Assembly (NCBI RefSeq): GCF_022539665.2 | Contig: NC_081333.1 | Span: forward strand, 4,960,001 to 5,024,000 | Source: Daphnia carinata | Taxonomy: Eukaryota | Direction: 5' to 3' | DNA: 64,000 nt | Part shown: piece after piece, positions 18,887-54,403 of the stretch | How positions within the stretch are numbered: position 1 is the stretch's first letter | Layout: each line of letters begins with the position of its first letter | Position numbers and translations under genes: made by a program | Notes under the pieces: model-generated | What the model saw: the letters and a program-made list of their open reading frames with translations, nothing else | Told to the model about the DNA's origin: nothing | Database searches by the model: none

Positions 18887-19087
18887 TGTAACGAGCCCAC
18901 AGGCTATCCGAAGACGGCCACACCCTCAACATCCCTCAAGCGTTTCACAAGTGAAAGTGAACATGTCCCCTCCCATTTTACCTTCATTTTGTATGTGTGT
19001 TAGTAGTATAAATACTGCATTTTTGTAACATGTAATTGGGACTTGTTACGACAATCCACTGCAATACACAAGGTTTGAAACTTTACA
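18887..19087 (+). repeat. 5' LTR (201 bp)
   Basis: TGTAACGAGCCC…AAACTTTACA. Contains TATAAAT. Confidence 0.97.
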
Positions 19088-21960
19088 ATTGGAGGTCCCA
19101 ACGAGACTCACACTTGTTGTCCAGTACAAAGTTTCTACCCGTACCTTATTTCAGTGATTGTGCTCTACACTTCCCCGACGAGTCTCCAACAACTCTACCA
19201 GACCAAGGAACACCATCAAAGGTAAGCGAATGCCGCTTGATCATATTGTATCAGACTACTCGTAAGGAGAATACTTTGTATCCGAACATTGCTGACGAAC
19301 TATCTCCACCGTTGTACCCCGTATTTCCCGAGCCAGACACAACCAACCAAAATCCCAACTACTCTCGAGAAAATTTTTTAGACCACTGGAAAACTCTTGT
19401 GGACTTAGAATTTGAACAAGAAGTAGAACAAAACAAAACCTATCAGACTACCACGACAAAAGCAAAAATCCAACAAATAGAATCCAAAAAACAAGAAGTT
19501 ATTAAAGAGACACACAACGCATTACAATTGTATTCATATACGTTGTTAGAACCATCGTTGCAAGTACCAAGTGGTATAACAGCAGAAACTATTACAAACA
19601 CCACAAAGACAGTCAAAAATTACGTAGAATCCCTTGGTGGCAACACCGAAAACCTTGACAGTTTATTACAGCAAATTAGCATTGTACATGGTAAAGAGAA
19701 AGAATTCTTATTAGGTACCAGCCGTATTTTACAAAAAGAAGTAGTACTTGCGCATATTACAGAGAAAAAATGTTCGTCTGAACTCAATTTTGAGTTACAG
19801 AGCTTAAGAAAGCAGCTAGAGAACAACAAGAAAAAGGCAAAGAGTTCCAAATACACCTTAAGTAGCTCCCTTGAACAACTCCAAGAAAGTAACGAAACAC
19901 TAAAAAACTCCCTTGAAAAAACTGCCAATCGAATAAGCGAATTAGAAACAAGCCTTGAAAGTGCCACAGCAACAGAAAACCAACTACACAACCTGTTACG
20001 AAAAAAAGAAGCCAATATCATAGCAGTTGAGAGAGAAGGGCAAGAAATAATTAGCAAACTTGAAAGTGAAAGAAAACAACTGGTTACGAAGTTAGAAACC
20101 GCCGAGCAACAGATAAAAGCAGCTTTAGAAACAAACAAACAACTTCAGACAGAAACAAAAGAAACAAAAGAGATCCTTGAAAAAACCTTAACAGAAAAAA
20201 TCGCCTTACGAAGAAGTCTGATAGATATTACTACAAAGAATAAAAATCTTGAAACAGAATTACAAAAAATCAACGCACAGACAATAGACCAAGAAGAAAA
20301 GATTAAGTATCTGGAGAACAGGATAAGAGAATATAGAAAGCAACAGGTAACATTCGCTGAAACCGAAGACTTAGACAACTCCAACGAACCAGGAGAGATA
20401 ACGAAATTAGTAAGTGAGATAAACGACCTAACCTCAATAACAGAAGGAGACAAATCCCTTCACTTCGAGTTAGAATCCGAACAAGTTGAAAAACTACAGC
20501 AACTCAACAACGACCTACAGAACCAAATCGAGATCCAAAACAACAACCTTCTTCAACTAGAGCGAAAGTACCAAACTCTCAAAAACAAAATCGAAATGGG
20601 ACTTTCACACAAAGAAGCTTCAAGAATTGACCGCGACACAACAGATACCGATAGCCTTGATACATCCACAACCCAACCAATTGTAAAAGCATTAGGAGAA
20701 TTATTTTCCAGAGAAGACAAAAAGTCAATTCCAATCTTCAAAGGGAAAAGTACTGATAAACTAATAACAGAATGGCTGAAGGACGCCGAACATGTCGCAC
20801 GCAACAACGACTGGGACGACAACCAAAAAATACGATTCTTCTCTGACAGACTAAAAGGCGATGCCTTAGAATGGCATGGAAACTACGTGGAAGAGCAAGG
20901 TGACGAATTAAGTTATGACGAATGGAAAACTGCCATTATTGCAAGATTCCAGGATGCATACGACTTAGCAGCACAAAGAAAAAAGTTATCCACGCTAAAA
21001 CAAAAACCTGAAGAGAAATGCAAAGCCTTTATTTCAAGAATCAACAGTCTCTACGAGTCCATTGAAGGCAAAGAAGAAAAATCTGACCAAAACCAGACCA
21101 TAGTTGAAGGTCGACTCATAAACACAGTCAAAAGAATGAGAGATTATACCAAAATCAAAATTCTGATGCAAGGCATTTTACCAAAATTCAGAGCAGAGCT
21201 CTATTTTCGAATGCCCGAAGACCCTGAAGATTTTGATCAGCTTTGTAAACAATTAATCATATCCGAAGGTATCCTATATAGCAAGGAAACTGCAGAAGAT
21301 AAGGAAATAAATGCGGTGATAGCAGGGATAACGCACCACGAAAAACAACAAGACAACGAACTTTCACAACAAAAGACAGAAATTGAGTTCTTAAAACAAA
21401 AAATTCAGGAACTGGAAAAAACTAATAAAAACCGTAACTTGGCACAGGATACTGATATAACCGTAGCAGCAGCAGATCGATACGAACCAAGATCCTCACG
21501 ATCAAGTGATCGGTACTCCAGATCACAAAATCCGCGAGTTAGATTCGACGACAGTTCAAATAGCAGAGGCCCCAGTAGTGACCGAAATTTCGGCCGAAGC
21601 AGGGAGAACAGCCCATACCGCAACAATTATACTTCACCACGAAGACAAGGTACTTCCCCAGGGTATCGACAACCCAATTACCCTTCATATCAACAAACAC
21701 CGAGACCTTCATACAACAACGGACCGACCCATTACAATCAACCACACTTTCAACCGAGCAACAATCAACAAGCGTATCACCAAAACCCAGGTTATCCACG
21801 ACAATACCCGCAGCAACGACAAAACCAGCCGAACACCCACGACACTCTTGGAAATAAGATTATTATCTGTTACAAGTGCAATAAAAAAGGACACATTGCA
21901 CGAGAATGTTGGACAGATATGGCACGTATCAACAACCCGAACCACCGTCCAATGCAGTAA
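19036..21960 (+). CDS. gag: Gag: long coiled-coil N-terminal extension, capsid, RS/Q-rich region, CCHC zinc knuckle
   Basis: 974-codon open frame. Capsid motif IPIFKGK…EWL…NDW…LKGDALEW; knuckle CYKCNKKGHIAREC. First in-frame ATG only at 20596, so the true start is uncertain. Confidence 0.92.
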   Translation: MGLVTTIHCNTQGLKLYNWRSQRDSHLLSSTKFLPVPYFSDCALHFPDESPTTLPDQGTPSKVSECRLIILYQTTRKENTLYPNIADELSPPLYPVFPEPDTTNQNPNYSRENFLDHWKTLVDLEFEQEVEQNKTYQTTTTKAKIQQIESKKQEVIKETHNALQLYSYTLLEPSLQVPSGITAETITNTTKTVKNYVESLGGNTENLDSLLQQISIVHGKEKEFLLGTSRILQKEVVLAHITEKKCSSELNFELQSLRKQLENNKKKAKSSKYTLSSSLEQLQESNETLKNSLEKTANRISELETSLESATATENQLHNLLRKKEANIIAVEREGQEIISKLESERKQLVTKLETAEQQIKAALETNKQLQTETKETKEILEKTLTEKIALRRSLIDITTKNKNLETELQKINAQTIDQEEKIKYLENRIREYRKQQVTFAETEDLDNSNEPGEITKLVSEINDLTSITEGDKSLHFELESEQVEKLQQLNNDLQNQIEIQNNNLLQLERKYQTLKNKIEMGLSHKEASRIDRDTTDTDSLDTSTTQPIVKALGELFSREDKKSIPIFKGKSTDKLITEWLKDAEHVARNNDWDDNQKIRFFSDRLKGDALEWHGNYVEEQGDELSYDEWKTAIIARFQDAYDLAAQRKKLSTLKQKPEEKCKAFISRINSLYESIEGKEEKSDQNQTIVEGRLINTVKRMRDYTKIKILMQGILPKFRAELYFRMPEDPEDFDQLCKQLIISEGILYSKETAEDKEINAVIAGITHHEKQQDNELSQQKTEIEFLKQKIQELEKTNKNRNLAQDTDITVAAADRYEPRSSRSSDRYSRSQNPRVRFDDSSNSRGPSSDRNFGRSRENSPYRNNYTSPRRQGTSPGYRQPNYPSYQQTPRPSYNNGPTHYNQPHFQPSNNQQAYHQNPGYPRQYPQQRQNQPNTHDTLGNKIIICYKCNKKGHIARECWTDMARINNPNHRPMQ
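19090..19106 (+). promoter_or_regulatory. Primer-binding site, tRNA-Gln type
   Basis: TGGAGGTCCCAACGAGA, 2 nt after the LTR. Near-complement of the tRNA-Gln 3' end (…UCUCGGUGGGACCUCCA). Confidence 0.85.
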
Positions 21961-24900
21961 ACACAATATCCCTACCAACCAACCCTTTAACACAAAATTT
22001 AGAAATAGCGATACCCAAACTAATCCGTATACCAGTAAGAATTTTTGGAAAAGAAATTAAGGCTTTAGTAGACACAGGAGCAGCAGCCAGTTTAGTTTCT
22101 GACAGCATATTTTTTAATCTAAAGGAGTATGAAGAACTTAAGATTGCCGGAGAAATAGGACCTGGAGAAATAGGACCCGGAGATTTAGGACCCCAAAATA
22201 GGACCTGGAGAAATAGGACCCGGAGAATTAGGACCCAATCATCAATCATATTTTGAAGGGTCCTATTTCTCCCTCATAAGGGTCCTATTTCTCCATAGTA
22301 ATGGTCCTATTTCTCCTTGGGAAATAGCCCTAAAGCCCGCTGTTATAAAGGAAGAACCGGACGGCTTATGTAGTTTTCCGCACTCCAAACCACGTTATCA
22401 ATTGCTCGTGTAATCAGTCCATCATAACTTTTTTGTTTGAATTCATATTTGTATTTTTTTTGCACGATTACACGCATTATCTATTGCTTTACACAGCTCA
22501 TGTATAAAAGTTATGTTTATTTTTACACAGTGTTTGATTTTTTGCCCTTGACCTTTCGTTAGTGGCGTTTCCAGTCCTAGTATCGCCCTCCCCCCTGGCT
22601 GATATCCTTATTCCATGCGAATTCCCGGAGACGAGGGGTATGCTTTCCCCTAAGTACTCCTTAATACACTGATAAATAATAAAAAAATTATATATATATT
22701 ATTTAAGACAAGCACATTTTTTAATAAAAAAAATATATGCCGCAAAACCATAAATAGAGACCTACGTGGCAAGAACGAAAATAATGAGTTCCGCTCGGAT
22801 CATGGAAGGCATGCCAGTGTATTGTTATACAAAACTATCATTGCACGGCTTGTAAATAATGGAACACGAGGCAGCTCATCCATGTCAATATCGGCAATTC
22901 ATACGATAAGTTTTTTTTTTTTTCGCTAGTTTATTCAGTTTATGCTTTCCTTTCATTTTTCGTTTTCTTAATGTTGATTTATCCCTTTTCTGTTGTTGTT
23001 CCTTTCTCTTTTCTTGTTCTTCGATGCGTTCAACCAACTTCTTTCTCGTTTGTGATGTTGATTTTATTCTCTTTCCTAATTGGTTTATCAAGCTCGCAAT
23101 CAATTCCACATTTTTTTTAACCTATTGCGCTTAGTATTCTTTTATCTGTTAAAATACAGAAAAGTAAAATTAGTTGAAGGTCTATTTTTTTTTGTCGAAA
23201 TCAAAGTTTACCTTGGCATCTGTTATTTTTCCTTTGTTTGTTTAGTTTCTTCTTCTCCCACTTATCTAACTTCCGTTTAAGTTGAGTTTTCATTTTATCA
23301 GAGTCCTGCTTTTCCCCTGAAATTGGATGGCATATGCTGGCTTGCCTTCCTTAAACAAAAAGATTATAGCACATACATACCCTACTAGCCTTTGTCCGTC
23401 CCAGGGACATCCCATCTACGTCCTGGCTGGCCGATCGGGACGTCCTATTCTGACGGCAGATGTACGTCATCAGGATGTCCTAATGTCCGGTTTTAGGGAC
23501 GTCCACTGGAGGACGTCCTACGGACGTAATTAATTGGAAGTCCTGGTAACGTCCTTATTTGGGAGTACTACGGACGTCCTTAGTTGGACGTCTGCAGGAT
23601 GGCAAATCCGTACGTTCAGTGAACGTACGTATTGGAACATCCGCGGAATGTCCGGATCGCGGCATCCAAAGGACGCAAGAAAATTTGTTTAAATTAAAAT
23701 AAAACCATAAATTTTTGGTAATTGATTTACATTTATTTTTACAAAATACAAACAATTAAACAAAAATTTAGCAGGTAACATCAAAAGCCTAAAAGGTCCC
23801 GCTTCTTCTTCACTGTCGGTGTAAATGAACTTGCCAGCTCTATCACTAGTTTTCGAACTGGCTTTTTTGGAACCAAGCTGTGTAATGGCTACATCGAAAT
23901 CGCTGTCGACCGAGGTAATTGATGTTTGCGAAGGTGTTCTCACCTGGACGGAAAGAATAAAAAATGGGAAATTGTGATCGGCGTAGAAACTCGAACAGGA
24001 AGATGATTTGAAATACCGGTCTCTTCCATCTACTGTTTGTTTCAGTATCAGAGGTAGCCGATTCGGCACTGATGGAAGATAGCGAGCGGAATCAACGACT
24101 TTCGCCCCCATTCATGTACGTGCGTTTGTATGGGTTGTCTTCCTTTAAATGATTGGGACGACCAACGATTCCATTTTTATCCTGCAACCAAATAAATTCA
24201 ACGCACACAGATTGAGAACTGTTTCCTTGTCATCGATAATTACGGAAAAGCCAAACCTTTTTCATTGCGGGGATGTTCGACTGTACGCCTGCTATGAGTT
24301 GAATGACTTGTTCAAAGCCTTCTTTTTGGATCGTTTCCCCACGTAAATATACAAGGTCATAGACATTGGAGCCATGATTGGCGTCAGTTCTGCTGGGGTG
24401 ATAGTTTTTTGTAGATCAGACAGAGACAAAATCGCTGTTGCTTGTGGAAGGTTTGTTCTCGCAATCGAAAATACGATCGTGATAATTTCTCTCTTCGGCT
24501 GACCATGTAACACAAATTTCGAACCTACAGCGAAGAACAGTTTTTACTGACAACTCTGCATTTAACGAGATAAAATAATAAAGTTAATGAGAAGTATGTT
24601 CATACCCTCTCTAGGTCTTGTAGCTGTACAAACAATTTCATACGTTCCATATCTTGCTGTTGTTGCTGACTTAATCTTTCCGTTTCAGTGGTTTTGGGTG
24701 GTAGCAATGGTCTGTCTCGGTTGGACTGGAAATTTTAAAAAAGAAAATTGATTGCTTGTAGTAGAGTCACATGAATTTGGGAGCACACACCTTTCGTTTA
24801 AGTACCCAAAAGTTGAAAATTTGATCAACGACAACGACATCGAGATCAAGATCTAGCGTCCGCGCCGTTTCATTAATGCTGGCATGCTTATAAAAGTCCG

Positions 24901-27900
24901 ATTCGATGAGTTGTAGCCTTTTCACACACAAGTAACTCTAAATAATTAAACGCAAAACGTAAAAATGTTTATGTATCCTATACTTTTGGGCACGGATTAA
25001 GTGCCTTTCTTCGACGGTCATTTCTTTTTTCAGCTTTCTAACGGATTGGGTGTTCTCCTCCCCCTCGCCTTCAACATGAGATCCCGTGATCCATATCCAA
25101 TATTGATATCATGGAAATCAATAATAAGGAATAGTGTTACGTGCTCCTGGACATTTTCTTGGGCACTGCTCAGCGATGGTACCGATTTCGGTTTGCTACA
25201 TAAGACGATAATAAATTAATGTAGTTACTAGTTGAAAATGCATCTAAGTGAAATGATAATTAAAGAATGGCTCTCAGATACTATCTAGCAGGAAGATTAG
25301 AACGAAAAGCCTTTAAACCATAAAAATAAAATTAATTTAGATTCAATTACACATATGTGTCCATTCATAGCTGGGTGTGTAGTTGGTTTTCTCCTCAACA
25401 ACAGAATTGGATGTCTTGCTTCTGTAAATTGAAATCCGTTAAAGCTCAGTACTTGCATCTTGAGATTAATGTCTTGACGTAACTAACAGCTGTAATGCTG
25501 TTATTTCATCTGAACGATAAGAAAAATGATTACATAAATTTCACGAACAAAAAATCTGTGAAAATCTAGATTACCAGAAGGATGATAGCTATAAGGCAGC
25601 TAACAAGTTGGTTCCCAAATGGTTCATGGTAAATCATGCTCTAGTTTCATGATTCTCCTTGAAAGTAACCACCTAAGAAACATTTCGGATTAGTAATGTG
25701 TGTCAAATTTCCAACTGCAACTAATAAAATTATGTCTACACTTTAAATACCTTTCCTTCCAAGTAAATTTTTTTCTTCTGTGGTGCTAATGCCAACATGA
25801 ATTTGAAATGTACCAAAACTGCCAAACCTAGGTAATAGAAAATTTTTAATTTTACTGAAACTAGCCACTTACCTGTCAAACAAACACCGCTTACAATAAG
25901 CAACTTCAACGATTCATAGAATTGTAGGATGTTGACACTTCGAGCTTGAAACAGTCGTCTGCTTGTAGTAACCGTTGCCATATATATCGTAAAAAACAAT
26001 ATTTTGCGCAAGGGCAAACAGTGTTTTATTATGAAATTAACGTTTCTTACATTATTTTTATATAATAATTTTCTTAGTTATCTGTGTATTAAGAGGTACT
26101 TATGTGCCCTCCCAAGAATCCTCATTGAGGCACGAAGAAAAAAAAAGTGAATAGCGACACTAGTAAAGGGCGGGTGATGGTAGGCCTGAAAACACCAGTG
26201 AAATGCGAAAATCCAAATACTGTATAAACAAAATTACTTTTCTATTAAATGAGCTCTAAAAAGCAATAGAAAAAGCATATAATCCTGCAAAAATATTATG
26301 AATGTAAATTTTTTTAAAAAAGTTATAATGCAGTGAAAAGGCGTCATATTGATAACGGTGTTTGAAGTGCAGAAACCAATATAAGCCGTTCGGTTTCTTT
26401 TTCAACATATCGGAAAATTAAGCCCATTACACATTTAATTTTTTTAAGATGGAGAAATAGGACCTCAAGGCTGGAGAAATAGGACCCTTCAAAAAATGTT
26501 TGAAGATTGGGTCCTATTTCTCCAGGTCCTATTTCTCCAGGTCCTATTTGTAGGTCCTAAATCTCCGGGTCCTATTTCTCCAGGTCCTATTTCTCCGGCT
26601 ACCAGAACTTAAACATGTTAAAGACTCCCCTTTGCCAATATTTAGAACGGTGTCAGGAGAAATACTAAAATCAAAAGGGAAATATGGATTTTCAATCACC
26701 ATTAACACCCATCACGTCATTAAGCATGATTTCTTTATTATGGAAAACTTGAACGAAACTTGCATATTAGGATTAGACTTCTTATCGAGCAACAATGTAA
26801 AAATTAATACTAAAAACAGGCAGATCAATTACGATCATTCCGGAAAAGAACATAGCTTTGGTAAATACACACTCCCAGTATATAGCATAACTTTTGGCAA
26901 GACAGGTATTAATATTCCACTCCTCCCAGACCGTTCGTCAGATAGTAACTACAACAACGATCTGACAGTAGCAGATTATCGCAGCCTAGAATCTTTCTCC
27001 CAATCAGAAATTAACAAGAAATCTAAGCGAATTGGACAAACCCAAGAGAGTGAAACGACTAACATCTCCGACGAGATACGCATTAAAATTGAAAATCTAT
27101 TGAAGAAACACGAAACTCTATTTGCAGAAAGAGAATCAGATTTGGGTCTAGCAACTGATGTAAAACATTCCATTAACATAGGATACAACGCCCCAATTAC
27201 TCAACGATTGCGTAGAACACCAGAAGCATTAAAACTAATTGTCAAAACAAAGATTGAAGTAATGGTAAATAACAATATTATTAGAGAAAGTCACAGCCCA
27301 TTTGCAGCAGCAATTGTAATGGTTCCCAAAAAAGATGGAGAAATGCGTATGTGTATTGATTATAGGGCACTTAACAAAATAACCGTAAAAGACAAATACC
27401 CATTACCAAGAATCGACGACACAATTGATGCATTGAGCGGATCAGTTTACTTCTCAACATTGGACTTACTAAGTGGCTACTGGCAGATCGAGATAGAAGA
27501 AAACGACAAACACAAAACCGCCTTCATTTGTGAACTTGGACAATACGAATTTAATAGAATGCCATTTGGACTAACAAATGCACCAAGCACTTTTCAACGA
27601 GCAATGAACAACATATTGAAATCAGTATTGTTCAGGTTCGCATTGGTTTACCTGGATGACATCATAGTGTTCAGTAATGATATTGCTGAACATGTGATAC
27701 ATCTAGAAGCAGTGTTTAAACTTCTTAAAGACGCAGGACTAAAATTAAAAAGAAAGAAATGCGAATTTTTCAAAGAAGAATTAGACTATTTAGGATATAT
27801 TGTTTCGAAAAAAGGAATAACACCGAGTACAAAAAAGTTAGAAGCAATCAGCAAATACCCAGCTCCCAAAAACGTGAAAGAATTAAGCTCATTTCTAGGT

Positions 27901-30237
27901 TTGGCTAGCTATTACAGAAAGTTCATCAGGGCTTTTGCTGATAAAGCCCACCCACTGACAGCGCTAACGAGAAAATCAGCCGAGTGGAAATGGGGAGAGG
28001 AACAAAGGGACGCCTTTGATTGTATCAAGAACTGTCTCATAACTAGACCTATCCTAGGGTATCCAGATTTCATGCGCGAATTTATCATCTACACAGATGC
28101 CTCAGGATACGGTATAGGAGCAGTCTTGGCTCAGATGCAAACTCTACCTCAATCAGCGGATTCAGCGGAGTCCGACGTACAGGAACCCCGTGAATCAGAC
28201 GGCGCGGAAGTCGTCATAGCGTATAGCTCTAAACATCTGAACGACCGCGAAGCCAAGTGGTCAACCACAGAGAAAGAGGCTTACGCCATCATCCACGCAA
28301 TTGACGTATTTAGAACGTATCTATACGGACGCAGATTCACCGTATTTACAGACCATAGACCTTTAGAATGGTTAATGAGCGAGACAGAACCCGCAGGAAG
28401 ATTAGCTAGATGGGCACTAAAAATACAAGAATTCGACATCGTCATTGGGTACCGGCCTGGGAAGTCGCACCAAAATGCAGACACCCTAAGCCGTATTCCC
28501 ATAGTGCCAATAGCACGAGTAGAAACAAGGGCAATGGAAAGAGGAACTGTCATAAGAGAGCTAGAAAATATTCGAAAAGAAGGTGAAAATCTAAAAGAAA
28601 AACTAAGGATTGAAAGATTAAAGAAACCAGAACAACTGGAGAAAGAAAACGAAAGTATTCAAAAAGAAAACGAAAGTTTTGAGAGGGAAAGTCAAAGGAA
28701 GAGCGTAGGTTTTGAAAGAGAAATTGGAAGTGAAAGTAAAAGGTCTGAGAAAGAAGACAGATGGATAGAATTACAGCAAGCAGATAAATATTGTCAAAAA
28801 CTAATGATGGATATACAAGAAGATAGCCAGAAAAATAGAAATAAAAAATTCTCAAGCAACTTTATAATCAATGAAAAGGGTCTATTAACAGATAGACAAG
28901 GAAAATTAGTAGTCCCTGTACCGTTAATCGACGGAATTTTACGAGCAAATCATGATCACATGATGGCAGGGCATTTAGGAATCGAAAAAACAATAGCCAG
29001 ACTTAGAGAACAATACTTCTTCCCATACATGAGACAAAACGTAACAGAGCACATCAAAAATTGCCTTAAATGCGCAAAACGCAAGGCTGTGGGAGGAAGT
29101 AAAGCACCATTGCAACCTATGCCCCCAGCCGAAAGGGTGTGGGAAAGACTTGCGATGGATATTGTGGGTCCCGTTCAAGAAAGCGCAAAGGGACATAAGT
29201 ATATTTTAGTCCTATCAGATTATGCCAGTCGTTTCGTCTTCACGGTTCCAATGAGAGATCAAACTGCCCAAACAATTGCTACAATACTGGTTAATGATAT
29301 TTATACAAAATATGGATCCCCCGAAGTAGTACTAACAGATCTAGGAACTAATTTCCTGTCGAGCTTAATCCAAGATATTTGCAAATTATTTAAAATCAAA
29401 CAAATCAGAACAACAGCATACCATCCCCAGACAGACGGATTAGTAGAACGATTTAACAGAACCCTATGTGACATGTTGGCTTGCTACGTAACGGATGAAC
29501 CAGAAAATTGGGACAAATATCTACCATTTGTCACATTTGCTTACAACACAGCGAAGCAATCAACACTGCAACAAAACCCATTCTTTCTATTCTTCGGGAG
29601 ACAACCAGTGCTCCCAAACGACATCAAAATAGACAGGCGATACGAAACATACGAGGATACCAGTGTAATGTACTCACACCAATGGAAGAAGGCTCAGCAA
29701 CTAGCGAAGGAACACCTATTTCGGGCACAGACAAAACAAAAAAGATACTACGACAAAGGAACACAAGCGATCAAATATAACATTGGTGACTTTGTGCTAC
29801 TGAAAGCTCCACCAACTGCCGGAAAATTCATCAACAGGTGGAATGGACCATTCAAAATCATCAGAAATTTCTCAAATCTCACTTATGAGATTCAACACGC
29901 GAGCAATGAAAAACTAAAATCAGTGGTACACGTCAACCGCCTAAAGCTCTACGTCCCGGCAAACCAAGAAACAGAAGAATTATCTAGTGTTCCACAACAA
30001 CCAGGAAGTGAAACAGTGCGACGAGGACCAGGCAGACCAAGAAACAACTTCATCAACAACAAAAGAATACCTGTCCGTAGAGCGTGTTGGCATCGGCATC
30101 ATCATGCAGCAGAAACGGAAAATTGTAAAATCATCGCACCAAATCTCCCCGGTCCTATACCAATTAATCCTGCACACACTAGAATGACGAATCCACGATA
30201 CAACTTACGGCAACGCAACGAAGTCTCGAGATTCTAA
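21885..30237 (+). CDS. pol: Pol (protease-RT-RNase H-integrase), split in the protease by a MULE (22142-26612); otherwise open
   Basis: LVDTGA (~22065); YLDD; TDAS…EKEAYA…TDH; HHCC and DDE integrase; W-x-GPF. Removing the insert and one TSD copy restores the frame …EELKHVKDSPLPIFR…. Pol is in the -1 frame relative to gag. Confidence 0.96.
22142..26603. mobile_element. Non-autonomous Mutator-like element with long diverged TIRs and GAAATAGGAC arrays
   Basis: 9-bp TSD AGAACTTAA (22133-22141 and 26604-26612). G…C termini. 15-bp GGAGAAATAGGACC(T/C) repeats at both ends, inverted. Degenerate inverted similarity extends to ~22700 and ~26060. Confidence 0.95.
23380..25380. mobile_element. Probable second DNA transposon nested in the MULE (CCC start, GGACGTCC palindrome array, decayed minus-strand gene)
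   Basis: CCCTACTAGC start, then many GGACGTCC-like palindromes at 23400-23670, then exon-like remnants. Right boundary is a guess (…AGCTGGG at ~25376). No TSD confirmed. Confidence 0.45.
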
Positions 30238-30261
30238 AACGTCCAAATTTTCTTTTCGCAG

Positions 30262-33200
30262 ATGGAACTGATACTATCACTCATCCAATTACTCACCATC
30301 ATTCCATCCACATATCCCATCTATTCAACCGTATGCGACTGCCAGAACGTAAAGACCAGAGGAATTTTAGATATAGAGGGACCCTATTACTGCAATAACA
30401 AAGAATCAGATACAGCTCACTTACCCAGAATACCCACGTTGTACACTTTAAAAACAACACAAAAACCAGCAGCCTCTTGGAAAGGCTGGACCTGCAAGCA
30501 ATGGATAAAAACGAAGAAAATAACTGGGTCATTCTGGATCGGATCTTTCGACACCATATATTCACAAGAAACTAAACTAATTTCCCCACTGGAATGCTGG
30601 AGAATGGTGAACGACAAGAAATGTGGCGATAATAACATGCAGACCGGACCAGCGGGTCTGAGTTTCACAGCCACCCCGACAGGCGAAGGGCAATGGTATG
30701 CCATAAAAACATATCACACCCTCAACTGTGTTGCAGAACAAATCACCTTACGGCAGGAAAAACAAGACGACCCAATCGAGAGCCCATTTGGACCATTAAA
30801 TACTACCCAGCAAGAAGGACACTTCATCCAAAATCAAAACACAATAGTATGGGGAGATAGGACAACAAATAATTCATATTCTCAAACCTTGATCAAAGGA
30901 AGCGGTTATCTGGAACTTCCGAGAATACCGGAACGCGAAAACACCAGCCGTCTTTACGACACCAATCGACAGATCGAGATTTCATTCTTCAACAAACCAG
31001 ATCGGGACATAACACCACAAGGTTACAAAGTTGTGGGCGTACCGCTCACATACCTAATCTTTCCAACCGAAACAACGAGAAAATTGTACGAGATGTTCAA
31101 AACAACTATACATACATGTATACAAAATACTCACATAGATACATCGGTATGCAAGGACTACAGGGAACTCCAGTTAACCAAGCGGAAACGATCCATTCAA
31201 CAGGAAGTTACATTCTTGCTCAACGCCCCCTCGGAAGACTCAGGAAAACGTCTGTACAGCATTTCGTACGCCTGGGGACCAATAAGAATGGGATATCAAC
31301 AGGCAATCAGGATCAACGAGAAGGACCGGAGTGTAAATTACAACGCCACTATATACATAATATACAAACCCGACGAAAACACTCAGTTAACCGCCCACTT
31401 TCGTCTCAAAGACGATGATCCACTTCCTCAAGGATCAGAATTCGAATACATCGTTGACCAAACAATAAGAATCCAGAACAGTAATATCTGTATCACGGAA
31501 GGAGAAGCAGGCCGACTAATTGTTGCTAAATGCTCAGAATTTTCAACACGGTGGATTCTAGATCAACAAAACCATCAATTAATTTCACAAGAATCGTATC
31601 TCTGTATTACACTAGGAACATACCAAGCTATCATATTGACAGAATGCAGAGATGATAAGAACAGCGTAACACAAAAATAGATCTTTGAAACTGTCAACAC
31701 CAATCCAGACATCATAGAAAATTTCCCAGACACAACTTTAGCAGAAATGCAGGAAATTCAACAAGAACAACGGAAGGCAATCACAACCACGATTAATTCG
31801 CCGCTATTTGGAGGAATTTTAAAAACTAATCACGGTAGCGGAAATATAATCTGGGATATGATTGCCTGGGGCCTATTGAAAAACGGAAAAACACCAAACG
31901 AAAAATGTCTAACACACCATGGAGTAAACAAGCAAATGACATTAGAAGAATGCGACAAAGAGTGGCCGCAATGTCAAGAAGAACTAAGAAAACTAATTAA
32001 CAGCAACGATCCATTAGTACAATCACAAACAATGGTAGCCAACTGTAGCAAAGCAACAGAACGAGGACAAGCTTTCGAATATACATCTGATTTCACCATC
32101 AGACCGTTCAACACAAACACCTGTATCAAAGCCAATACGACAATGCTAGTACTTCAAGAGTGCGCTAGCACCAGCTCAATCTGGGGCACATTTGAGCACA
32201 CAGGACAGCTCATGGCAACAGATAGAACTGGGCTACATTCACCCTCATCAGACAGGAAGTGTCTCACACAGAGAGTAGGACGGGTGACCCTGGGGCATTG
32301 TCACAGCTCCAGCCAAAAACAGCACTTTAACTTTGAATATCGCAACCCACACCAAATACGGACTCTCTCAGCGGCAGCCATCATAGCACTGCACACTAAA
32401 CAGCCATTGGACGGGAAAACACTCCCAACCATACCACCACTAATGAAAAGAGAGGATAACAACCAATCAGAGAACAGCAAAACTTTGGCCACACCCCCTG
32501 CCACGCCCACAACAGAAAAACACACAACAACGACAAGCGTTACAACGACTACAAAGCCCACAATAAAAACCACATTGGGAACAACAGCAAAAACAACGGT
32601 AAAAAGCACTACGACAATTAAACCAGTTACAAGCACATCAGCTAGCAAACCCACCACAACACAGAAAGTGACAACTAAACCCAGTATGACATCAACGTCA
32701 ACAAAACCCACCACAACTACAAAACCAATAATCACATCGACAAGCACTAAACCCACCACTACTACTAGACCTACGGCAACTGCTAAGATAACTTCAACTT
32801 CAACAACCACTACAACTACAAAACTTACGACAACAACAACAATGGCCACTACAACAAGTTCCACAACAACAGAGAAAACAACAACGCCTACTACGACAAG
32901 TTCCACAACAACAGCGACAACAACGACGCACCAGCCAAGCTCAATAACGCCGAGCACAAAAACAGTAATCGAAAGTTCGACTACCCAACAATCATCAACA
33001 CATACTGCCGGGAGGTCGGAGAAAAAGGCCCAGACGAAAAAGGCCCAGACGAAAAAGGCCCGCGAAAAAGGCCCAGACGAAAAAGGCCCATACGAAAAAG
33101 GCCCACTTTTTTCCAAATTCAAAAGTGGGCCTTTTTCTCCATTGGACTGGGCCTTTTTCTCCGCTCAATTTCCATTTTCTTACAAACTTTATTTTTGTTT

Positions 33201-36200: not shown

Positions 36201-39200
36201 TTAACATAAAATTTTAAAATTTTTTAATTCTTTTATTACAAATTCAACAAAATTTAGTTCCTTTGTATAACAATAATAATGAATTATAATAATAGAACAA
36301 TAACAAAGGAACTAAATTTTGTTGAATTTAATAAAGCTTTAGCTAAAAGTTTTAATAACAGCTTTCCATCATCCGCTCTGCAAAGAGCTGAAGGTTTTCA
36401 GGTAAACTTTCAATTTGACAATGTAAGATTTTAAATAATTTTAACCTTTCTGTATTGCAATAGGTAAAAAACCATGTGGAATTGCTTGCTAAATCTATTA
36501 AGAAACAAGATGAAATCAAATCAAATTGTAAAAGAAGTTGGCTGAACGCATCGAAGAATAGGAAAAGAGAAAGGAATAACAAGAGAAAACGAGAAAAGCA
36601 AACATTAAGAAAAAGAAAACTGAAAAGAAAGAACATAAACCGAATGAACACCTCACACTTAACTGGTATGTGTTAACATTTACATTTAAGGAAGACCGGC
36701 CAGTTTATTCCATTGATTTTCAGGGAAAAAGCTGGAATTGTCTGATAAGACAACGAAAATCAAACTTAAACGGAAGTTAGAGGGAATGAACAAGAATTTA
36801 AAAAGGAAAAGTAAGAAGAAGAGGTCCTGAATTGCCAAACATGCTTGAGCCACCAAGGCAGCTTCTGTGTCATCAACCTCTGGTCTTTCAGAGTTTGTTA
36901 AAACAGAAATTCCTAAACCAAGACTAGCAAGTACACTGCCAACACCAATTTTTAACAGTGAAGGCTGCCTAGTTTCCAGCAAATGTGATTTTGGAGAACT
37001 ATCTAATTCCTCACCCATACTGAAAAAGACCACTTCAGATCCAGAAGTGGCAACGATTAAAATGAAAGAAAATAAAACTTAAACCAAAAATGAAAATCTT
37101 GGTAGGCCAAGCTGAAGTTCAAATGCAAGAAGTATTGAAGAGAAACAGGCATGAAATGGTGCTCTGCAAATAGCTGAAGGTTTTCAGGTAAACTTTCAAT
37201 TTCTTCAAAACTTTTACTCTCAAGATCTTCAAAACTTTTAACCTTTCTGTATTGCAATAGGTAAAAGACTATGTGGAATTGCTTGCCAAATCAATTAATG
37301 AACGAGATCAAATCAGAAAGTAACATAAATTGCGCTGAACGAAACGAAGAAAAGGAAAAGAGAAAACAATAACAACAGAAAAAAAGACAAACCAACATTA
37401 AGAAAAATTAAACTGAAAAGAAAGAACATTAAGTGAATAAACCAAAGAAAAACAGTCAAATTTATCGTATGAAATAATGATACTGTCTCATGGACGAGCT
37501 AAACTCGTGTTCTTTCATGTGCAAGCCATGTCGTGATAGTTTTTTATAACAATACACTAGCATGCTTTCAATGACCGTGGAAAATTTAAAGAAACAAAAT
37601 CTAAGATTCATTTTAAAAGGTTTAGTGTCTTCACCAATAACAGACTCCCATAAAAAAAGTTCTTCATGGTATAAAATAATTACAATGGATTTGTAATTGT
37701 TAGTAGCATTGTTAATGTCAAGTGCAAAGCTTCCTTATATTTCACTGTAGTATGTGTGTGTAATAAGGTAACCAATAGATGCTAGAAAATGTGCATAAGG
37801 GAAAACAAGACACGAAGAACGTAAAAAATCATTTATAATTGCTGGAAAAGCGCGCGTTCTTACCAGAGACGTAGATGGTTCTCTCGTACTAAAGGTGACG
37901 TTATTCTTTAACAAAAGGTTGCTCTGTAACAAAAGCAATGCATTAACTATTTAAGTTTTACTCATAGACGTTCCTAGGCAAATCAAATATTCCTGTTTTG
38001 CTCGAAATATTTATTGCTTGGGTGAAAAGCGCTCCAATCCCAGTCAGCAGTCACCGCCTAGCTGGCATAGTTATAGCAGTAGGTTATGATTTTAATACAT
38101 TAATTTGGCTCTTTGTAATTGTGTGAAGAATTGAAAATGTGATAAGGAAATAAATGGTATGAGAATGAATATTGAATTATAATATTCTTTTTTTTTACTT
38201 TCAAAACTACTTTGTAAATTTCACACGATAAGTGCGAAAAACATGTATTTCTTATATTATATTTAAAGCAGCTATAGTAGTTCAATAAACAAAACTTGTG
38301 AAAAATGAACTTTATTTAACGGGATATTAGCAATAGATATATACTAACATAATTCAAAATCAGATTGCTACCGAATAAAAAAATATAAATTACCTAGCGT
38401 ACAAACGCTAACATTGTTTCATCGGCAAACCTTATTGAAAGTCACGGTTTCAGCAACCTTTGTACATTCCAACTTCCACGGAATAGGAGGTGGGAAATAT
38501 TTTTTGGAAACATGTTAAAGATTGTAGGAATTTGGAAATTTAACGGAGAAAAAGGCCCAGTCAATGGAGAAAAAGGCCCACTTTTCAATTTGGAAAAAAG
38601 TGGGCCTTTTTCGTGTGGGCCTTTTTCGTATGGGCCTTTTTCGCGGGCCTTTTTCGTCTGGGCCTTTTTCGTCTGGGCCTTTTTCTCCGCCAATCTACTG
38701 CCGGAGTAACCCCTTTAGCACTAACGGGAACAACGTCTACAACAGAAGGAACTCAAATTCAGGCCATCGAAGAAAGCAGTATTCGAAACTTGCCGTTAGC
38801 TGATTCTTTGATAATTTCAATGGATCAAAAAGCTGAAGATACATCAAACAATGAAAATTTAGAAGCCGATTTACCCAAAAACATTGAAGAATTCAACGAC
38901 AAAATTAAATACGAAATAAGTAAAATGCACGACCAATATAAGATAAGCATCGAAACTGAACACGAAAACAAGTTGGCAAAAGAAATTCGGGACGTTTATT
39001 GTCAACTATCAGCAATCAAAAGAACACAAGCAGTTATATTAGCCCAAACCAACGGAATTTTAGCAGCAGCAGCAGTAGGTTTACCAATCTGCACAAGACT
39101 ACAAGGCTTCGGTCAAGCAATGACACTTCAACAATGCGAGGCAAAAAGAATTTTTATATCAGCAAACGAAACCAAATGTGGATTTCAGCCGTTTTTTACT

Positions 39201-40049
39201 TACGAAGGAAAAAACTGTACGATTGGAACAGATGGATGGTCAATTCATCCATATTCTGATTGTTTCTGGAAAACACCTTTGGTAAATTTAAATGGAAATC
39301 CACACACATGGGAACACAATTCTACGACAGGAGATTGGATACGCCAGACACCTAGCATTCACATGCCTAATTTAGACCTCATTTCAGAATTTGAAGAACT
39401 CCATCTTAACGATTTCGACTTCGCGCTGAAAAGCCATCCAGCACACGAGACGATGGAAATGGAACAATTAAATATTCTAAATGACCTAGTTGGCAGAATG
39501 CAAGAAGGCAACTCCAATTCTGTTGGAGACATTGTAATGTCAGAACAACAAGATAATCAAATAGGAAACATGTTCTCATGGTTCGACAAACTAAAAATAA
39601 TTGGTCTATCAGCGATAGGATTTGTACTATTCCTCGTATGTTTACGAATCTTCATTATTTGCAACCCCATCTCGAAGATAAAAGAACATATCCGCAGAAA
39701 ACGGAACTTTACAACCAGATACGATGATGGCGTAGAGGAAGAACACGAACTCGCATCAATGATACCGGCACGAGAAACAAATTACCATTCGGAAATAGCA
39801 ATCGAACAACCGTTCCTAAGAACAACCGCCCCTGCACAACTAACAACAGAAAGACAAGGTCAAATGCGCCCTCCCCGACCAAGTGCACCAAATTCATTAA
39901 TTTACCCCTCTATCGAAACAACTGACACAATCACACGATGTACAGGAAAACACACCATGTGCACTTACGTCGTCGGATATGGCATGGTTTGGGAAGACCT
40001 ATGCCGTTGCATGTCCGAAACAGACAATAGTAATTCAGCCAGAAAGTAA
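30262..40049 (+). CDS. env: Env-like type I membrane glycoprotein (reconstructed 30262-33011 + 38705-40049, ~1364 aa); interrupted by one TAG (31678) and a MULE
   Basis: N-terminal hydrophobic signal; Cys-rich ectodomain; KRKR furin site (31180-31191); QxW/C-rich ricin-B-like repeats; Thr-rich tract; TM IIGLSAIGFVLFLVCLRIFIIC; ~130-aa tail. The three ORF pieces join in one frame. Confidence 0.9.
33012..38695. mobile_element. Foldback-type Mutator-like element (5.7 kb, ~2.3-kb inverted arms) inserted in env
   Basis: 9-bp TSD TACTGCCGG (33003-33011 and 38696-38704). GAAAAAGGCCC arrays at both ends. Arms ~33012-35330 and ~36375-38695 are diverged reverse complements. Confidence 0.95.
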
Positions 40050-40704
40050 AAGTCCCAAGGTCATTGAAATTAAAAGTAGCCACTAAACATAACCCCTGAC
40101 AAATTTAATTAATTACAAAATAAATTAGCTCCCAGAAAATAACACACTTATCAGCATTTTTTTTCCGACCACTTAGGTGATTTTTAAAATATATCCCATA
40201 CTCGTAACTTTATAGTAAAACAAAGAGTAGAGACAAAACCCGAATAACAATTTTGTATTCCAAACTAACATGAACTAAAAAATTCAAAATAGAAAACCTT
40301 TGGGATAGACAAAACAAAAATTACAAACCAAACCAAGTCAATAACAAAATCATCGGAGAAAAAGCAGTGTAGTGTAACAAAGAACGACAGAAACTAACGC
40401 ACGAAGAAAAAGAAAGACGCAAGAACCCCTATAAGAAAAGACAATGACTTAAAAAGGAAAATAGAAAGTTCAAAATGTAACGGTATATTCATCAATTCGC
40501 CCCACGGCGAAATAGAAGACGGAACACATTAAAATAGAAGAAACTACCTGTTTTGAAATTAAGAAGAGGGGAACAAGAATTTATGAAAAACTCTGCAAAA
40601 GAAGACTTTTCAAAAAACTAACCTCTTCCCAGTGTTTCAACGACATAATTCAGACAAAGTTCTACAAAGAAAAGTGTCATCACAAGTCAACCTTTACTCT
40701 AAAA

Positions 40705-41946
40705 ATGGAAAACAACAACATCACTCAGGATAACGCAATGGACGTAACCATCATCCCACAAGAGGAAAAAGAATACGAATTAATATACATTAGTGATACT
40801 GAAAGTGAGAATAGCCAGCAGGAGTACAAAGAAAAGGAAAGTGCTAAAAATGCAGATGTGAACAAGCAGATAGTGAAAAATGTGGAATGGAACGGAATCA
40901 AAACCGAGAAAAACGATTTTTCCGAACTAGAGAGAAAAAGGAAAGACATCAGTGAATCAAGTGACGACGACACTGAGGAGGTAAATGCCTATAGTGAAAT
41001 GGAACCCGATCTGGATAGTACCTACAGTACCGAATTTATATTGGAAAATAACAGTGACACCGGTTTCCAATATGACCCACCCCACGGTACCGAATTGGAA
41101 AATGTTAGTGACACCGACCTCCAATGTGAACCGCCCAAAAAACGGAGCAGACCGAATAACCAACAAAGGGAAACAGAAACATGCAAGAACTGTCGGATGA
41201 AGACAATAGCACCCCTTTCAACAGAACAAGCAGAGAAGATTCAACTGCACCGACAGGCTACTATTGACTTGGAAGACGGAAAACTTTGTCTATCAATGAT
41301 GGAAGCTACACTACCAACTATAAGAAGATGCATCCAAAAAAGATTAGAATCGCTAGGATGTTGGCCACGACAAAAAATGGCCATATTCCTTAATAAAAGA
41401 TACGAGGATGGACGTACCCTGCTCCACACCAGTATACAAAAAGTAAGGTACGACATAACTGATGCTCTACTTGCCTATGGGGCAAACCCCGAGATAATGT
41501 ATCGAGGCAGCACAATTGGACACATGGCAGCGGAAAATAACGACTTATTCCTGGTAAGGATACTAAAACACCACAACTGCGAGTTCACAAATCGCAATAA
41601 AGACGGAGAAACCCCGCTAATGACAGCAATATCACACGAACATGAGGAATGCGAACGCCTAATTTCGACACCAACAAACATCAAAATAGCAACCAGCAAG
41701 GGCAGAACCATCTTGCATTACCTCGCCAGATATGGACTCGAAGACTTGGCTACGCAAATCTGTACAAAAAGAATAATTGACGTCAACCAGCAAGACGAAA
41801 CGGGCACAACTGCCTTACACGAAGCAGTGAAATATAAACGACTGGACATGATCGAATTACTGCTTCTACATGGAGCAGATAAAAAGATAAAAGACAACCG
41901 TGGACATACGGCTGTAGCAAATAATAACAGCACAAACATACAATAA
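40705..41946 (+). CDS. Ankyrin-repeat accessory protein (413 aa) encoded inside the retroelement
   Basis: Uninterrupted ATG-initiated ORF between env and the PPT, with the element's A-rich composition. About 5-6 ANK repeats (GRTLLH, GSTIGH, GETPLM, GRTILH, GTTALH, GHTA). Acidic N-terminus and PPKKRSR. Confidence 0.92.
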   Translation: MENNNITQDNAMDVTIIPQEEKEYELIYISDTESENSQQEYKEKESAKNADVNKQIVKNVEWNGIKTEKNDFSELERKRKDISESSDDDTEEVNAYSEMEPDLDSTYSTEFILENNSDTGFQYDPPHGTELENVSDTDLQCEPPKKRSRPNNQQRETETCKNCRMKTIAPLSTEQAEKIQLHRQATIDLEDGKLCLSMMEATLPTIRRCIQKRLESLGCWPRQKMAIFLNKRYEDGRTLLHTSIQKVRYDITDALLAYGANPEIMYRGSTIGHMAAENNDLFLVRILKHHNCEFTNRNKDGETPLMTAISHEHEECERLISTPTNIKIATSKGRTILHYLARYGLEDLATQICTKRIIDVNQQDETGTTALHEAVKYKRLDMIELLLLHGADKKIKDNRGHTAVANNNSTNIQ

Positions 41947-42144
41947 TCAAGACAAAGGTGGAACGAGTTATTCAACCATAGTCATCATTAGTATTCATAG
42001 AAGCAGCTGTAGTTGGTGACGGAAAAAGAAGAAGGAGAAAAATTTCTGCTAAAAATTCAGGTGAAGGAACAAGTTTTTTATATTATCCGTAAAACAATAG
42101 TCGGTGATGGAAACACACACATTGGAGGACCAATTCTTCTCATC

Positions 42145-42159
42145 GAAGAGGGGAAGGAA
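42145..42159 (+). promoter_or_regulatory. Polypurine tract
   Basis: GAAGAGGGGAAGGAA immediately before the 3' LTR. Confidence 0.9.
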
Positions 42160-42360
42160 TGTAACGAGCCCACAGGCTATCCGAAGACGGCCACACCCTC
42201 AACATCCCTCAAGCGTTTCACAAGTGAAAGTGAACATGTCCCCTCCCATTTTACCTTCATTTTGTATGTGTGTTAGTAGTATAAATACTGCATTTTTGTA
42301 ACATGTAATTGGGACTTGTTACGACAATCCACTGCAATACACAAGGTTTGAAACTTTACA
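42160..42360 (+). repeat. 3' LTR (201 bp)
   Basis: Identical by eye to 18887-19087. Confidence 0.97.
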
Positions 42361-53900: not shown

Positions 53901-54325
53901 ATATTGATGCCCCCCTAACTAATGCCCCCTTAACTAATGCCCCCTGTCAAATATAACAATTGACCCCCATTTATTGTTTTTAACTGTCTTGTACAAAAAG
54001 CGAACGCTACAATAAAATATTATTGGCAACTACCTTGCGTTTGTTTTCATTGTTATTGGCGTCTGCTACTGGCCTGTTCGATACTGTCATCAAATAATAT
54101 ATTGCTGTCTGCTATTGCAAAGTGTAGTGGTGAATGTCGTGTGTGTGTGTGTGTGTTTCCTATGTTTTGATCTATCGGACTTTGGAGGTAGGTACCAATC
54201 ATCAATTAATTCAATTGACCCATTTTTGCCCGGCTGGCTATATCTTCGTGGTGCATTTTTTCTCATGTTTATCTCGGTGGGCAATTTTGCACGGTTGGCT
54301 ATTCCTTAGCAAGTATGCCATCGAA

Positions 54326-54403
54326 GAATAGCTCAGATGGTAGAGCAATGGGTTTCCTGATCTTCTGTCCCCCAAAAAATTCCGGGTTCAATTCCCGGTT
54401 GGG
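54326..54403 (+). other. tRNA-like Pol III A-box/B-box module within the MULE
   Basis: TAGCTCAGATGGTAGAGC … CCGGGTTCAATTCCCGG. Anticodon arm is not canonical. Confidence 0.55.

What the first reader, a model, noticed from the sequence alone, without database searches (positions are those of the whole stretch)
18887..42360. Four-gene, complex-retrovirus-like Ty3/gypsy element: extended Gag, Pol, class III fusogen Env and an ankyrin accessory gene
Seen: intact LTR/PBS/PPT/TSD boundaries enclose four same-strand ORFs. Removing two TSD-flanked MULEs gives ~13.3 kb, with gag, pol and the ankyrin ORF open and env broken by only one TAG. Established: the enveloped gypsy elements of insects (errantiviruses) use a baculovirus-F-like class I env. 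Class III-type env captures are known mainly from BEL/Pao elements (Tas gB-like, Anakin chuvirus-G-like). Inference: this is an independent, recently active enveloped retrovirus-like lineage with an accessory gene. I do not recognise it as a described family.
Basis: partly seen in the sequence, partly recalled or inferred. Interest (0 to 1): 0.93.

Follow-up and report, generated by a model that had tools for sequence, protein, structure and literature searches.

The report
Water-flea retrovirus-like element with ankyrin gene
This is a broken copy of an already catalogued retrovirus-like jumping gene of water fleas (Daphnia) that carries a herpes-gB-type envelope gene; what seems undescribed is that its envelope has lectin-type domains built in, likely for attaching to cells, and that it and several relatives carry a fourth, ankyrin-repeat gene that would act as an accessory protein.

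Summary
The boundaries are real: identical 201-bp LTRs, 4-bp TSD, PBS, PPT, four same-strand ORFs and two nested inserts with 9-bp TSDs. The env N-terminus folds like herpes gB (class III).

The headline novelty fails. Chary & Hayashi (eLife 2026) describe gB-type Ty3/gypsy elements across animals. Their Dcar_errantivirus_6 (Daphnia carinata, 7 copies) matches this env at 229 of 230 residues (by eye). This copy is also more damaged than stated: gag's upstream ATG is out of frame, both pol and env are interrupted, and env has a stop.

Two features were not found in print. (1) An ankyrin ORF follows env in 4 of 6 informative metagenomic relatives and in two D. magna gene models; in one relative it lies upstream of PPT-LTR. 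(2) Two ricin-B-type trefoils plus a Thr-rich stalk sit between fusogen domains II and III; trefoils occur in 19 of 29 more distant homologues. A conserved splice donor and env acceptor suggest spliced env and ankyrin messages.

Verdict: new variant of a known kind; the functions of the trefoils and the ankyrin protein are inferred.

The parts
18883..18886 (+). 5' target-site duplication (ACTA; partner 42361-42364)
18887..19087 (+). 5' LTR, 201 bp, TG..CA, TATAAA at 19007
   Evidence: 0 of 201 differences to the 3' LTR
19090..19106 (+). Primer binding site, likely tRNA-Gln
   Evidence: 11 of 12 nt match the Gln 3' end tabulated in PMC13524379 Supp 1; same PBS in L010, L014, L018
19220..19226 (+). 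Putative splice donor AG|GTAAG just upstream of the gag ATG
   Evidence: only strict AGGTAAG in the three insert-free segments; GGTAAG at the same place in 3 of 4 relatives
19230..21960 (+). gag: about 450-aa E/L/K/T-rich (likely coiled-coil) N-terminal extension, Ty3 capsid, CCHC knuckle; start ATG out of frame with the long ORF in this copy
   Evidence: 52-53% identity to D. magna Gags P0206/P0207 over about 900 aa
21885..22141 (+). pol 5' piece in the -1 frame over the gag end; protease DTG at 22071
22142..26603 (.). Nested non-autonomous TIR element 1 (MULE-like), 9-bp TSD, interrupts the protease
26613..30237 (+). pol 3' piece: rest of PR, RT (YLDD 27649), RNase H, integrase (HHCC, DDE), in gypsy order
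30245..30261 (+). Putative splice acceptor (pyrimidine tract + CAG) directly before the env ATG
   Evidence: YAG directly before the env ATG in 6 of 7 relatives
30262..31200 (+). env signal peptide and class III fusogen domains I-II, ending in a basic KRKR motif (31180); matches Dcar_errantivirus_6
31201..32460 (+). env insert: two ricin-B-type beta-trefoil domains; in-frame TAG at 31678-31680 at the end of the first
   Evidence: Pfam PF00652 E 9e-6 (26.3 bits, under the cut-off) and 5e-10 (40.1 bits, over it)
32464..33011 (+). env mucin-like stalk, 60% Thr+Ser over 182 aa
33012..38695 (.). Nested non-autonomous long-TIR (foldback/MULE-like) element 2, 9-bp TSD, interrupts env
38705..40049 (+). 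env C-terminal part (inferred gB domains III-V), TM helix about 39606-39662, Cys-containing tail
   Evidence: domain assignment inferred, the single-sequence fold failed
40615..40632 (+). Putative branch point and acceptor (CTAAC..TCTTCCCAG) upstream of the ankyrin ATG
   Evidence: all 4 other ATGs between the env stop and the ANK ATG lie upstream of it; weaker than the env acceptor and not shown conserved
40705..41946 (+). Open 413-aa ankyrin ORF: acidic N-terminus, basic patches, CxxC, C-terminal ankyrin repeats
42145..42159 (+). Polypurine tract
42160..42360 (+). 3' LTR

Best explanation
A recently inserted but now broken copy of the Daphnia env-carrying Ty3/gypsy family Dcar_errantivirus_6, whose gB-type envelope carries two lectin-type domains and a mucin-like stalk that likely serve as its own attachment head, and whose fourth gene, an ankyrin-repeat protein, is likely an accessory factor made from a spliced message.

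Shown: boundaries, domains, class III fold, family match, and ANK lying after env in relatives.

Inferred cycle for intact copies. Full-length RNA from the 5' LTR gives Gag and, through the -1 overlap, Gag-Pol; reverse transcription is primed by tRNA-Gln. The donor at 19221 splices to 30261 for Env (about 0.75) and to 40632 for ANK (about 0.55). Env would be a class III trimer cut at the basic site after domain II, with trefoils and stalk displayed between domains II and III to bind cell-surface ligands, doing what separate gD/gH/gL proteins do for herpes gB (about 0.5). ANK, with acidic N-terminus, basic NLS-like patches and ankyrin repeats, most likely binds a host regulatory protein; my single best guess is damping of NF-kB-type or silencing defences (about 0.3).

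This copy has four lesions (gag frameshift, insert in PR, stop in env, insert in env) and cannot replicate alone. Only its ANK ORF is whole.
For: Family: 229 of 230 residues match the Dcar_errantivirus_6 env row (by eye), listed as ENV_HSV with 7 copies and no LTR/PBS.

Fold: model pLDDT 90. Best Foldseek PDB hit is HSV-1 gB, E 1.5e-9, and all listed rows are herpes gB. VIA gives Z 10.1, rmsd 5.3, 210 aligned to 2gum, then rhabdovirus G and thogotovirus GP.

ANK belongs to the element: 9 D. carinata accessions at 397-412 of 413 identical; after env in 4 of the 6 loci with over 1.1 kb downstream; L014 reads env-ANK-PPT-LTR-PBS-gag-pol; D. magna gene models P0003 and P0023 fuse env and ANK and have locus tags 5 and 2 away from Gag homologues on same-length contigs. 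ANK pN 0.23 against pS 0.79 for L002/L014 over 377 codons.

Trefoils: 23 of 24 close homologues and 19 of 29 distant ones carry PF00652. Insert-free homologues join the two fusogen halves directly (P0078, P0157). L001 has collagen repeats where this env has mucin, which fits a spacer role.

Splice signals are conserved. ORF3s of LTR elements are typically spliced (PMC5408684 passage).
Against: No RNA, protein or particle evidence. None of the five trefoil C-L/I-x motifs found has the Asp that galactose-binding ricin-B subdomains use (consensus recalled), so sugar binding is not assured. No IkB/Cactus chain is among the 60 best of 418 PDB hits for ANK. The ANK acceptor is weak and not visibly conserved. 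2 of 6 informative loci lack ANK (L017, L019). L011's ANK is only 20% identical, lacks the CxxC and sits outside the main clade, so it may be a separate capture. D. carinata ANK lacks a C-terminal extension present in L002/L006. The genomic context of the 9 D. carinata ANK accessions and of the distant env-like proteins was not seen. KRKR is not the canonical RxK/RR. The env C-terminal piece gave a sub-threshold Baculo_F hit (17.9 bits against a cut-off of 24.1, over the TM region).
Confidence: 0.7

Rival explanations
1. ANK is an element-directed regulator or adaptor (binding its own Gag, integrase or Env tail, or controlling its own transcription or splicing in the manner of Tax/Rev), not an antagonist of host defence.
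For: Conserved position and open frame at about 30% identity; acidic N-terminus and basic patches; no IkB-like chain among the top PDB hits.
Against: No test of partners was run. Viral ankyrin proteins of poxviruses and polydnaviruses mostly target host NF-kB or ubiquitin pathways (recalled).
Confidence: 0.3
2. The trefoil and mucin block is a shield or stabiliser of the fusogen, or binds a protein, rather than being a glycan-binding attachment head.
For: The canonical Asp is absent from all five motifs found; 10 of 29 distant homologues have no trefoil hit, and some join the fusogen halves directly.
Against: The domain is kept, and expanded from one to two or more copies, across homologues of 25-75% identity, at the exposed II-III linker. 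One homologue also hits the mannose-receptor Cys-rich domain, which binds sugars without that Asp (recalled).
Confidence: 0.35
3. ANK is a passenger: a host gene fragment captured once and carried without function.
For: Extra ORFs downstream of env are a known occasional capture (PMC6431247 passage). ANK evolves faster than env (31% against 60% identity, window vs L002) and is missing in 2 of 6 loci.
Against: It stays open and in place in relatives whose synonymous sites are saturated; pN is far below pS; many near-identical full-length copies exist in D. carinata.
Confidence: 0.08
4. The family moves only within cells; env is kept for cell-to-cell fusion or transfer without free enveloped particles.
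For: PMC13524379 states that transmission is unknown outside Drosophila; most Metaviridae VLPs are not infectious extracellularly (PMC7879559).
Against: Signal peptide, TM helix, conserved cysteines and a surface-type insert are all retained.
Confidence: 0.25

Closest known systems
Branchiopoda_Diplostraca_Dcar_errantivirus_6 (Chary & Hayashi, eLife 2026, PMC13524379; RT clade G, IN clade I, C2-type HSV/gB env), with Dsin_4, Dcar_5 and Dmag_7 as relatives
   Same: Env domains I-II 229 of 230 identical (by eye); gag-pol-env order; gB-type env; multicopy in D. carinata.
   Different: The paper lists no LTR or PBS for it. Its main text and 7 supplements have no 'ankyrin' or 'lectin' ('ricin' only in species names), and the main text has no 'mucin', 'accessory' or 'splic'; figures were not seen. 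This copy is broken in four places.
Drosophila errantiviruses (gypsy, ZAM, Idefix)
   Same: Ty3/gypsy pol; env as a third ORF; spliced env message (recalled for these, inferred here).
   Different: They have an F-type (class I) env, three ORFs and Ser/Lys primers. This has a class III env, a Gln-like PBS and a fourth ORF.
Burro giant gypsy-like elements of planarians (PMC6431247 passage)
   Same: Gypsy-like element with an env homologous to mononegaviral glycoproteins, and with ankyrin repeats.
   Different: In Burro the ankyrin repeats and env lie inside one polyprotein of about 4,900 aa, upstream of pol. Here ANK is a separate ORF between env and the PPT.
Herpesvirus gB, chuvirus/rhabdovirus G (class III fusogens); BEL/Pao Anakin and Tas env
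   Same: Domain I-II fold; basic site in the II-III linker.
   Different: 7-15% identity. I know of no trefoil insert in those (recalled; searches found none). The host element is gypsy, not BEL.
Complex retroviruses and viral ankyrin proteins (polydnavirus vankyrins, poxvirus ANK; recalled)
   Same: Accessory ORF 3' of env, likely spliced; ankyrin repeats.
   Different: Not Retroviridae; no regulatory function shown; no sequence test linked ANK to those proteins.

Membership tests
Metaviridae (Ty3/gypsy) | LTRs with PBS and PPT | tested here: met
Metaviridae (Ty3/gypsy) | gag with capsid and nucleocapsid; pol order PR-RT-RH-IN | tested here: met
   Pfam Ty3_capsid, zf-CCHC, RVT_1, RT_RNaseH, rve; definition from PMC7879559
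Metaviridae (Ty3/gypsy) | RT phylogeny within Ty3/gypsy | not tested
   No reference set on hand; the paper classes Dcar_6 pol as Ty3/gypsy, RT clade G
HSV/gB-type errantivirus (operational sense of PMC13524379) | env after pol with signal peptide, TM and class III domains I-II | tested here: met
HSV/gB-type errantivirus (operational sense of PMC13524379) | domains III-V and trimer | tested here: inconclusive
   single-sequence model pLDDT 36; contiguous with domains I-II in insert-free homologues
Dcar_errantivirus_6 | over 98% nucleotide identity across the three ORFs | tested here: inconclusive
   only the 230-aa env stretch could be compared, 229 of 230 by eye; no genome held
ICTV genus Errantivirus / insect errantiviruses | membership of the Drosophila gypsy clade with F-type env | tested here: not met
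   env is class III; the paper groups it with annelid, mollusc and barnacle elements in RT clade G
Complex retrovirus-like organisation | conserved extra ORF inside the LTRs | tested here: met
Complex retrovirus-like organisation | expression from spliced RNA and a regulatory function | not testable with these tools
   signals only
Mutator-like element (the two inserts) | 9-bp TSD and long TIRs | tested here: met
Mutator-like element (the two inserts) | MULE transposase or an identified autonomous partner | tested here: inconclusive
   no stop-free stretch over 152 aa in either insert; spliced or decayed genes not excluded

The most novel reading that the evidence does not exclude
A clade of water-flea gypsy proviruses has independently evolved a complex-retrovirus design. 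It has a self-sufficient class III envelope with a built-in beta-trefoil attachment head on a mucin or collagen stalk, an architecture not found described for any class III fusogen, plus a spliced ankyrin accessory protein that counters host innate or silencing defence. It is recently active in D. carinata.
Probability: 0.25. Interest if true: 0.82.

Novelty: new variant of a known kind. Interest (0 to 1): 0.52.

Why it matters
The paper that catalogued these elements names cell entry by gB-type errantiviruses as unknown, because herpes gB needs gD/gH/gL, which they lack. A trefoil-plus-stalk insert at the domain II-III linker is a concrete, testable candidate for the missing attachment function in a lab-tractable animal. 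A conserved ankyrin ORF would be a rare accessory gene in Metaviridae. It also explains a set of D. carinata RefSeq 'ankyrin repeat domain-containing protein 1-like' models as probable retroelement genes. The existence of class III env in gypsy is not news.

Tried and rejected
- No genome was held, so copy number and context in the host could not be counted.
- PDB sequence searches with the env halves: 1 chance hit and 0 hits.
- Single-sequence fold of the env C-terminal piece failed (pLDDT 36) and was not searched.
- Viral-contig scan: 94 pattern matches, none confirmed.
- Sequencing runs: no RNA holder listed. Laying X1/X2 gave only short contigs, none bridging env and ANK. No evidence either way.
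- ESM Atlas for ANK returned only generic ankyrin clusters.
- Tree: only the quick tree finished; P0023 was dropped. My lectin labels came from BLAST and undercounted against Pfam, so the group test is void and only the topology is used.
- dS is saturated in all but one of the 10 ANK pairs, so no dN/dS ratio is claimed; local alignment also biases pN down.
- My first reading of the PBS as tRNA-Thr (notebook, from recall) was replaced by Gln.
- The weak Baculo_F hit was rejected as a TM-region match below the cut-off.
- The conserved Met at the pol start is probably a by-product of overlapping CCHC codons; no claim is made. No canonical slippery heptamer was seen by eye.
- Our-findings look-ups: nothing.
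- Literature searches found no paper on an ankyrin ORF or lectin insert in Daphnia LTR elements. Repbase/Dfam, subscription papers and the figures of PMC13524379 (notably Fig. 5 supplement 1) were not visible and could bear on novelty.
Full report
Observation. The element is delimited by two identical 201-bp LTRs (18887-19087 and 42160-42360; 0 differences, TG..CA), a 4-bp TSD ACTA, a PBS at 19090 and a PPT at 42145. The PBS matches 11 of the last 12 nt of a tRNA-Gln tabulated in PMC13524379 Supp 1. Pfam finds Ty3 capsid and CCHC in gag, PR-RT-RH-IN in gypsy order, ricin-B trefoils in env and ankyrin repeats in the last ORF. Two inserts with 9-bp TSDs and imperfect TIRs lie in the protease (22142-26603) and in env (33012-38695). 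Neither has a stop-free stretch over 152 aa, so MULE-like is an inference. Subtracting their lengths gives 13,310 bp. Env has one TAG at 31678.

Its first in-frame Met is residue 521, and the ATG at the homologous start (19230) is in another frame and closes after 11 codons, while D. magna Gags run from that start through the whole N-terminal extension. The copy therefore has four lesions.

Host and family. The ANK protein is 397-412 of 413 identical to 8 sequences (9 accessions) of Daphnia carinata, so the host is that species or a very close relative. Of Chary & Hayashi 2026 (PMC13524379) I read the abstract, sections 6, 14, 15 and 22, part 1 of 2 of sections 5 and 9, term searches, and rows of Supp 1, 2 and 5; I did not see the figures. 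It describes HSV/gB-type env in Ty3/gypsy elements across metazoans and argues for an ancient association. Its Supp 2 row for Dcar_errantivirus_6 matches this env at 229 of 230 residues by eye. Supp 1 lists it as ENV_HSV with 7 copies and no LTR or PBS, in RT clade G with other branchiopod, annelid, mollusc and barnacle elements. So both the kind and the family are catalogued.

Env class, tested independently. The window's own residues 30262-31200, folded with a 95-row alignment, gave pLDDT 90.2. Foldseek's best PDB hit is HSV-1 gB (E 1.5e-9, TMq 0.45, 8% identity) and all rows listed are herpes gB. The wide VIA search ranks HSV gB first (Z 10.1, rmsd 5.3, 210 aligned), then HCMV gB, Chandipura G (8.8) and Bourbon GP (8.1), above unrelated PH folds (6.9 and less). 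The viral library returns chu-, rhabdo- and herpesvirus glycoproteins. The C-terminal piece could not be folded; its assignment to domains III-V is inferred, because shorter homologues join the two halves almost directly (P0078: 7-279 then 294-561; P0157: 21-255 then 268-530).

The env insert. Between the halves lie a KRKR motif, two beta-trefoils and a 60% Thr/Ser stretch. PF00652 is on 23 of 24 close homologues (11 named, all D. magna or D. sinensis) and on 19 of 29 more distant ones at E up to 0.001, 12 of them above the curated cut-off, including proteins of 670-800 aa with a single trefoil. Ten have none. The context of those distant proteins is unknown. One metagenomic relative has collagen repeats in place of the mucin. 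None of the five C-L/I-x motifs found carries the Asp of canonical galactose-binding subdomains (consensus recalled), so the ligand is open.

The ankyrin ORF. Of 19 metagenomic loci, 13 end within 810 nt of the env match. Of the 6 with more than 1.1 kb, 4 have an ankyrin ORF directly after env on the same strand (L002, L006, L011, L014), L017 has an acidic ORF without Pfam hit, and L019 is a broken fragment. L014 reads env, ANK, PPT, LTR, the same PBS, gag, pol, which places ANK inside the element in a relative with 62% env C-terminal and 35% ANK identity. Two D. magna gene models fuse env and ANK (P0003, P0023) and have locus tags close to Gag homologues (033629/033634 and 011487/011489). The window, P0003, L002, L006 and L014 fall in one 12-row clade with support 99 in a quick tree. 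L011 lies outside it, and its ANK is 20% identical and lacks the CxxC, so it may be a second capture. For L002/L014, pN is 0.23 and pS 0.79 over 377 codons; dS is saturated, so only 'constrained' is claimed. The nearest solved structures are generic ankyrins and DARPins, with no IkB among the 60 shown of 418.

Expression model (inferred). The only strict AGGTAAG in the insert-free segments lies 10 nt before the gag ATG, and GGTAAG holds that place in 3 of 4 relatives. A pyrimidine tract plus CAG abuts the env ATG, one of only two such sites in 26613-33011, and YAG-ATG is kept in 6 of 7 relatives. No ATG lies between 19035 and the donor. A weaker CTAAC..CCCAG site at 40632 would skip all four upstream ATGs before the ANK start; its conservation was not shown, and a stronger tract at 40176 would not skip them. 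ORF3s of LTR elements are typically spliced (PMC5408684, passages seen).

Mechanism and odds. Family identity about 0.95; ANK an integral, constrained gene about 0.9; spliced env about 0.75; spliced ANK about 0.55; trefoil/stalk as attachment head about 0.5; ANK as antagonist of host defence about 0.3, against about 0.3 for an element-directed role. This copy cannot replicate alone.

Prior art for the extras. The main text and 7 supplements of PMC13524379 have no 'ankyrin' or 'lectin', and its main text has no 'mucin', 'accessory' or 'splic'. The D. pulex LTR survey (PMC2996953, term passages) has no ankyrin or third ORF. PMC6431247 (passages) notes that LTR elements capture occasional ORFs downstream of env, and that planarian Burro elements carry ankyrin repeats and env inside a giant polyprotein: a precedent for the parts, not for this layout. 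PMC7879559 (whole text) allows one to three genes for Metaviridae. Searches (listings only, apart from the papers named) found nothing closer. Repbase/Dfam, subscription papers and the eLife figures were not visible.

Verdict. What remains is a new variant of a known kind: a catalogued Daphnia gB-type errantivirus family with two apparently unreported, clade-conserved features, a trefoil/mucin insert that offers a testable answer to how these envelopes might attach, and a fourth ankyrin gene. Interest 0.52; 0.82 if the complex-retrovirus reading (probability about 0.25) holds.

Noticed in passing
L001:152-4186: A relative's env carries collagen triple-helix repeats (Pfam E 6e-43) in place of the Thr-rich stalk, between the trefoils and the C-terminal fusogen part.
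   Followed up: partly
window 45095-47397 (-): 706-codon open frame built from about 13 copies of a 144-bp (48-aa) repeat; only diffuse Pfam hits (DUF2153, no single stretch passing).
   Followed up: partly
window 51176-59717 (-): A second, env-less-looking gypsy element with identical 102-bp LTRs; its RT is split by a TIR element at about 53841-57690.
   Followed up: partly
window 6441-8291 (-): Ty1/copia fragments (RVT_2, SH3_retrovirus).
   Followed up: no
window 2786-2912: TIR-like 15-bp repeats resembling the ends of insert 1; the two inserts also share 150-240-nt internal segments at about 78-82% identity.
   Followed up: no
L017:1086-1760, L013:2755-3264, L016:6965-7493: Other ORFs downstream of env in relatives: two acidic ones without Pfam hits and one unscanned; possibly other accessory genes or ANK N-termini cut by contig ends.
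   Followed up: partly
L002:2226-3857, L006:5369-7021: These ANK proteins have a shared C-terminal extension of about 150 aa that is absent from the D. carinata protein; L014 appears by eye to hold it in another frame.
   Followed up: partly
window 18887-42360: Four lesions in a copy with identical LTRs; 201 bp gives only a loose age bound, so the insertion need not be extremely young.
   Followed up: no
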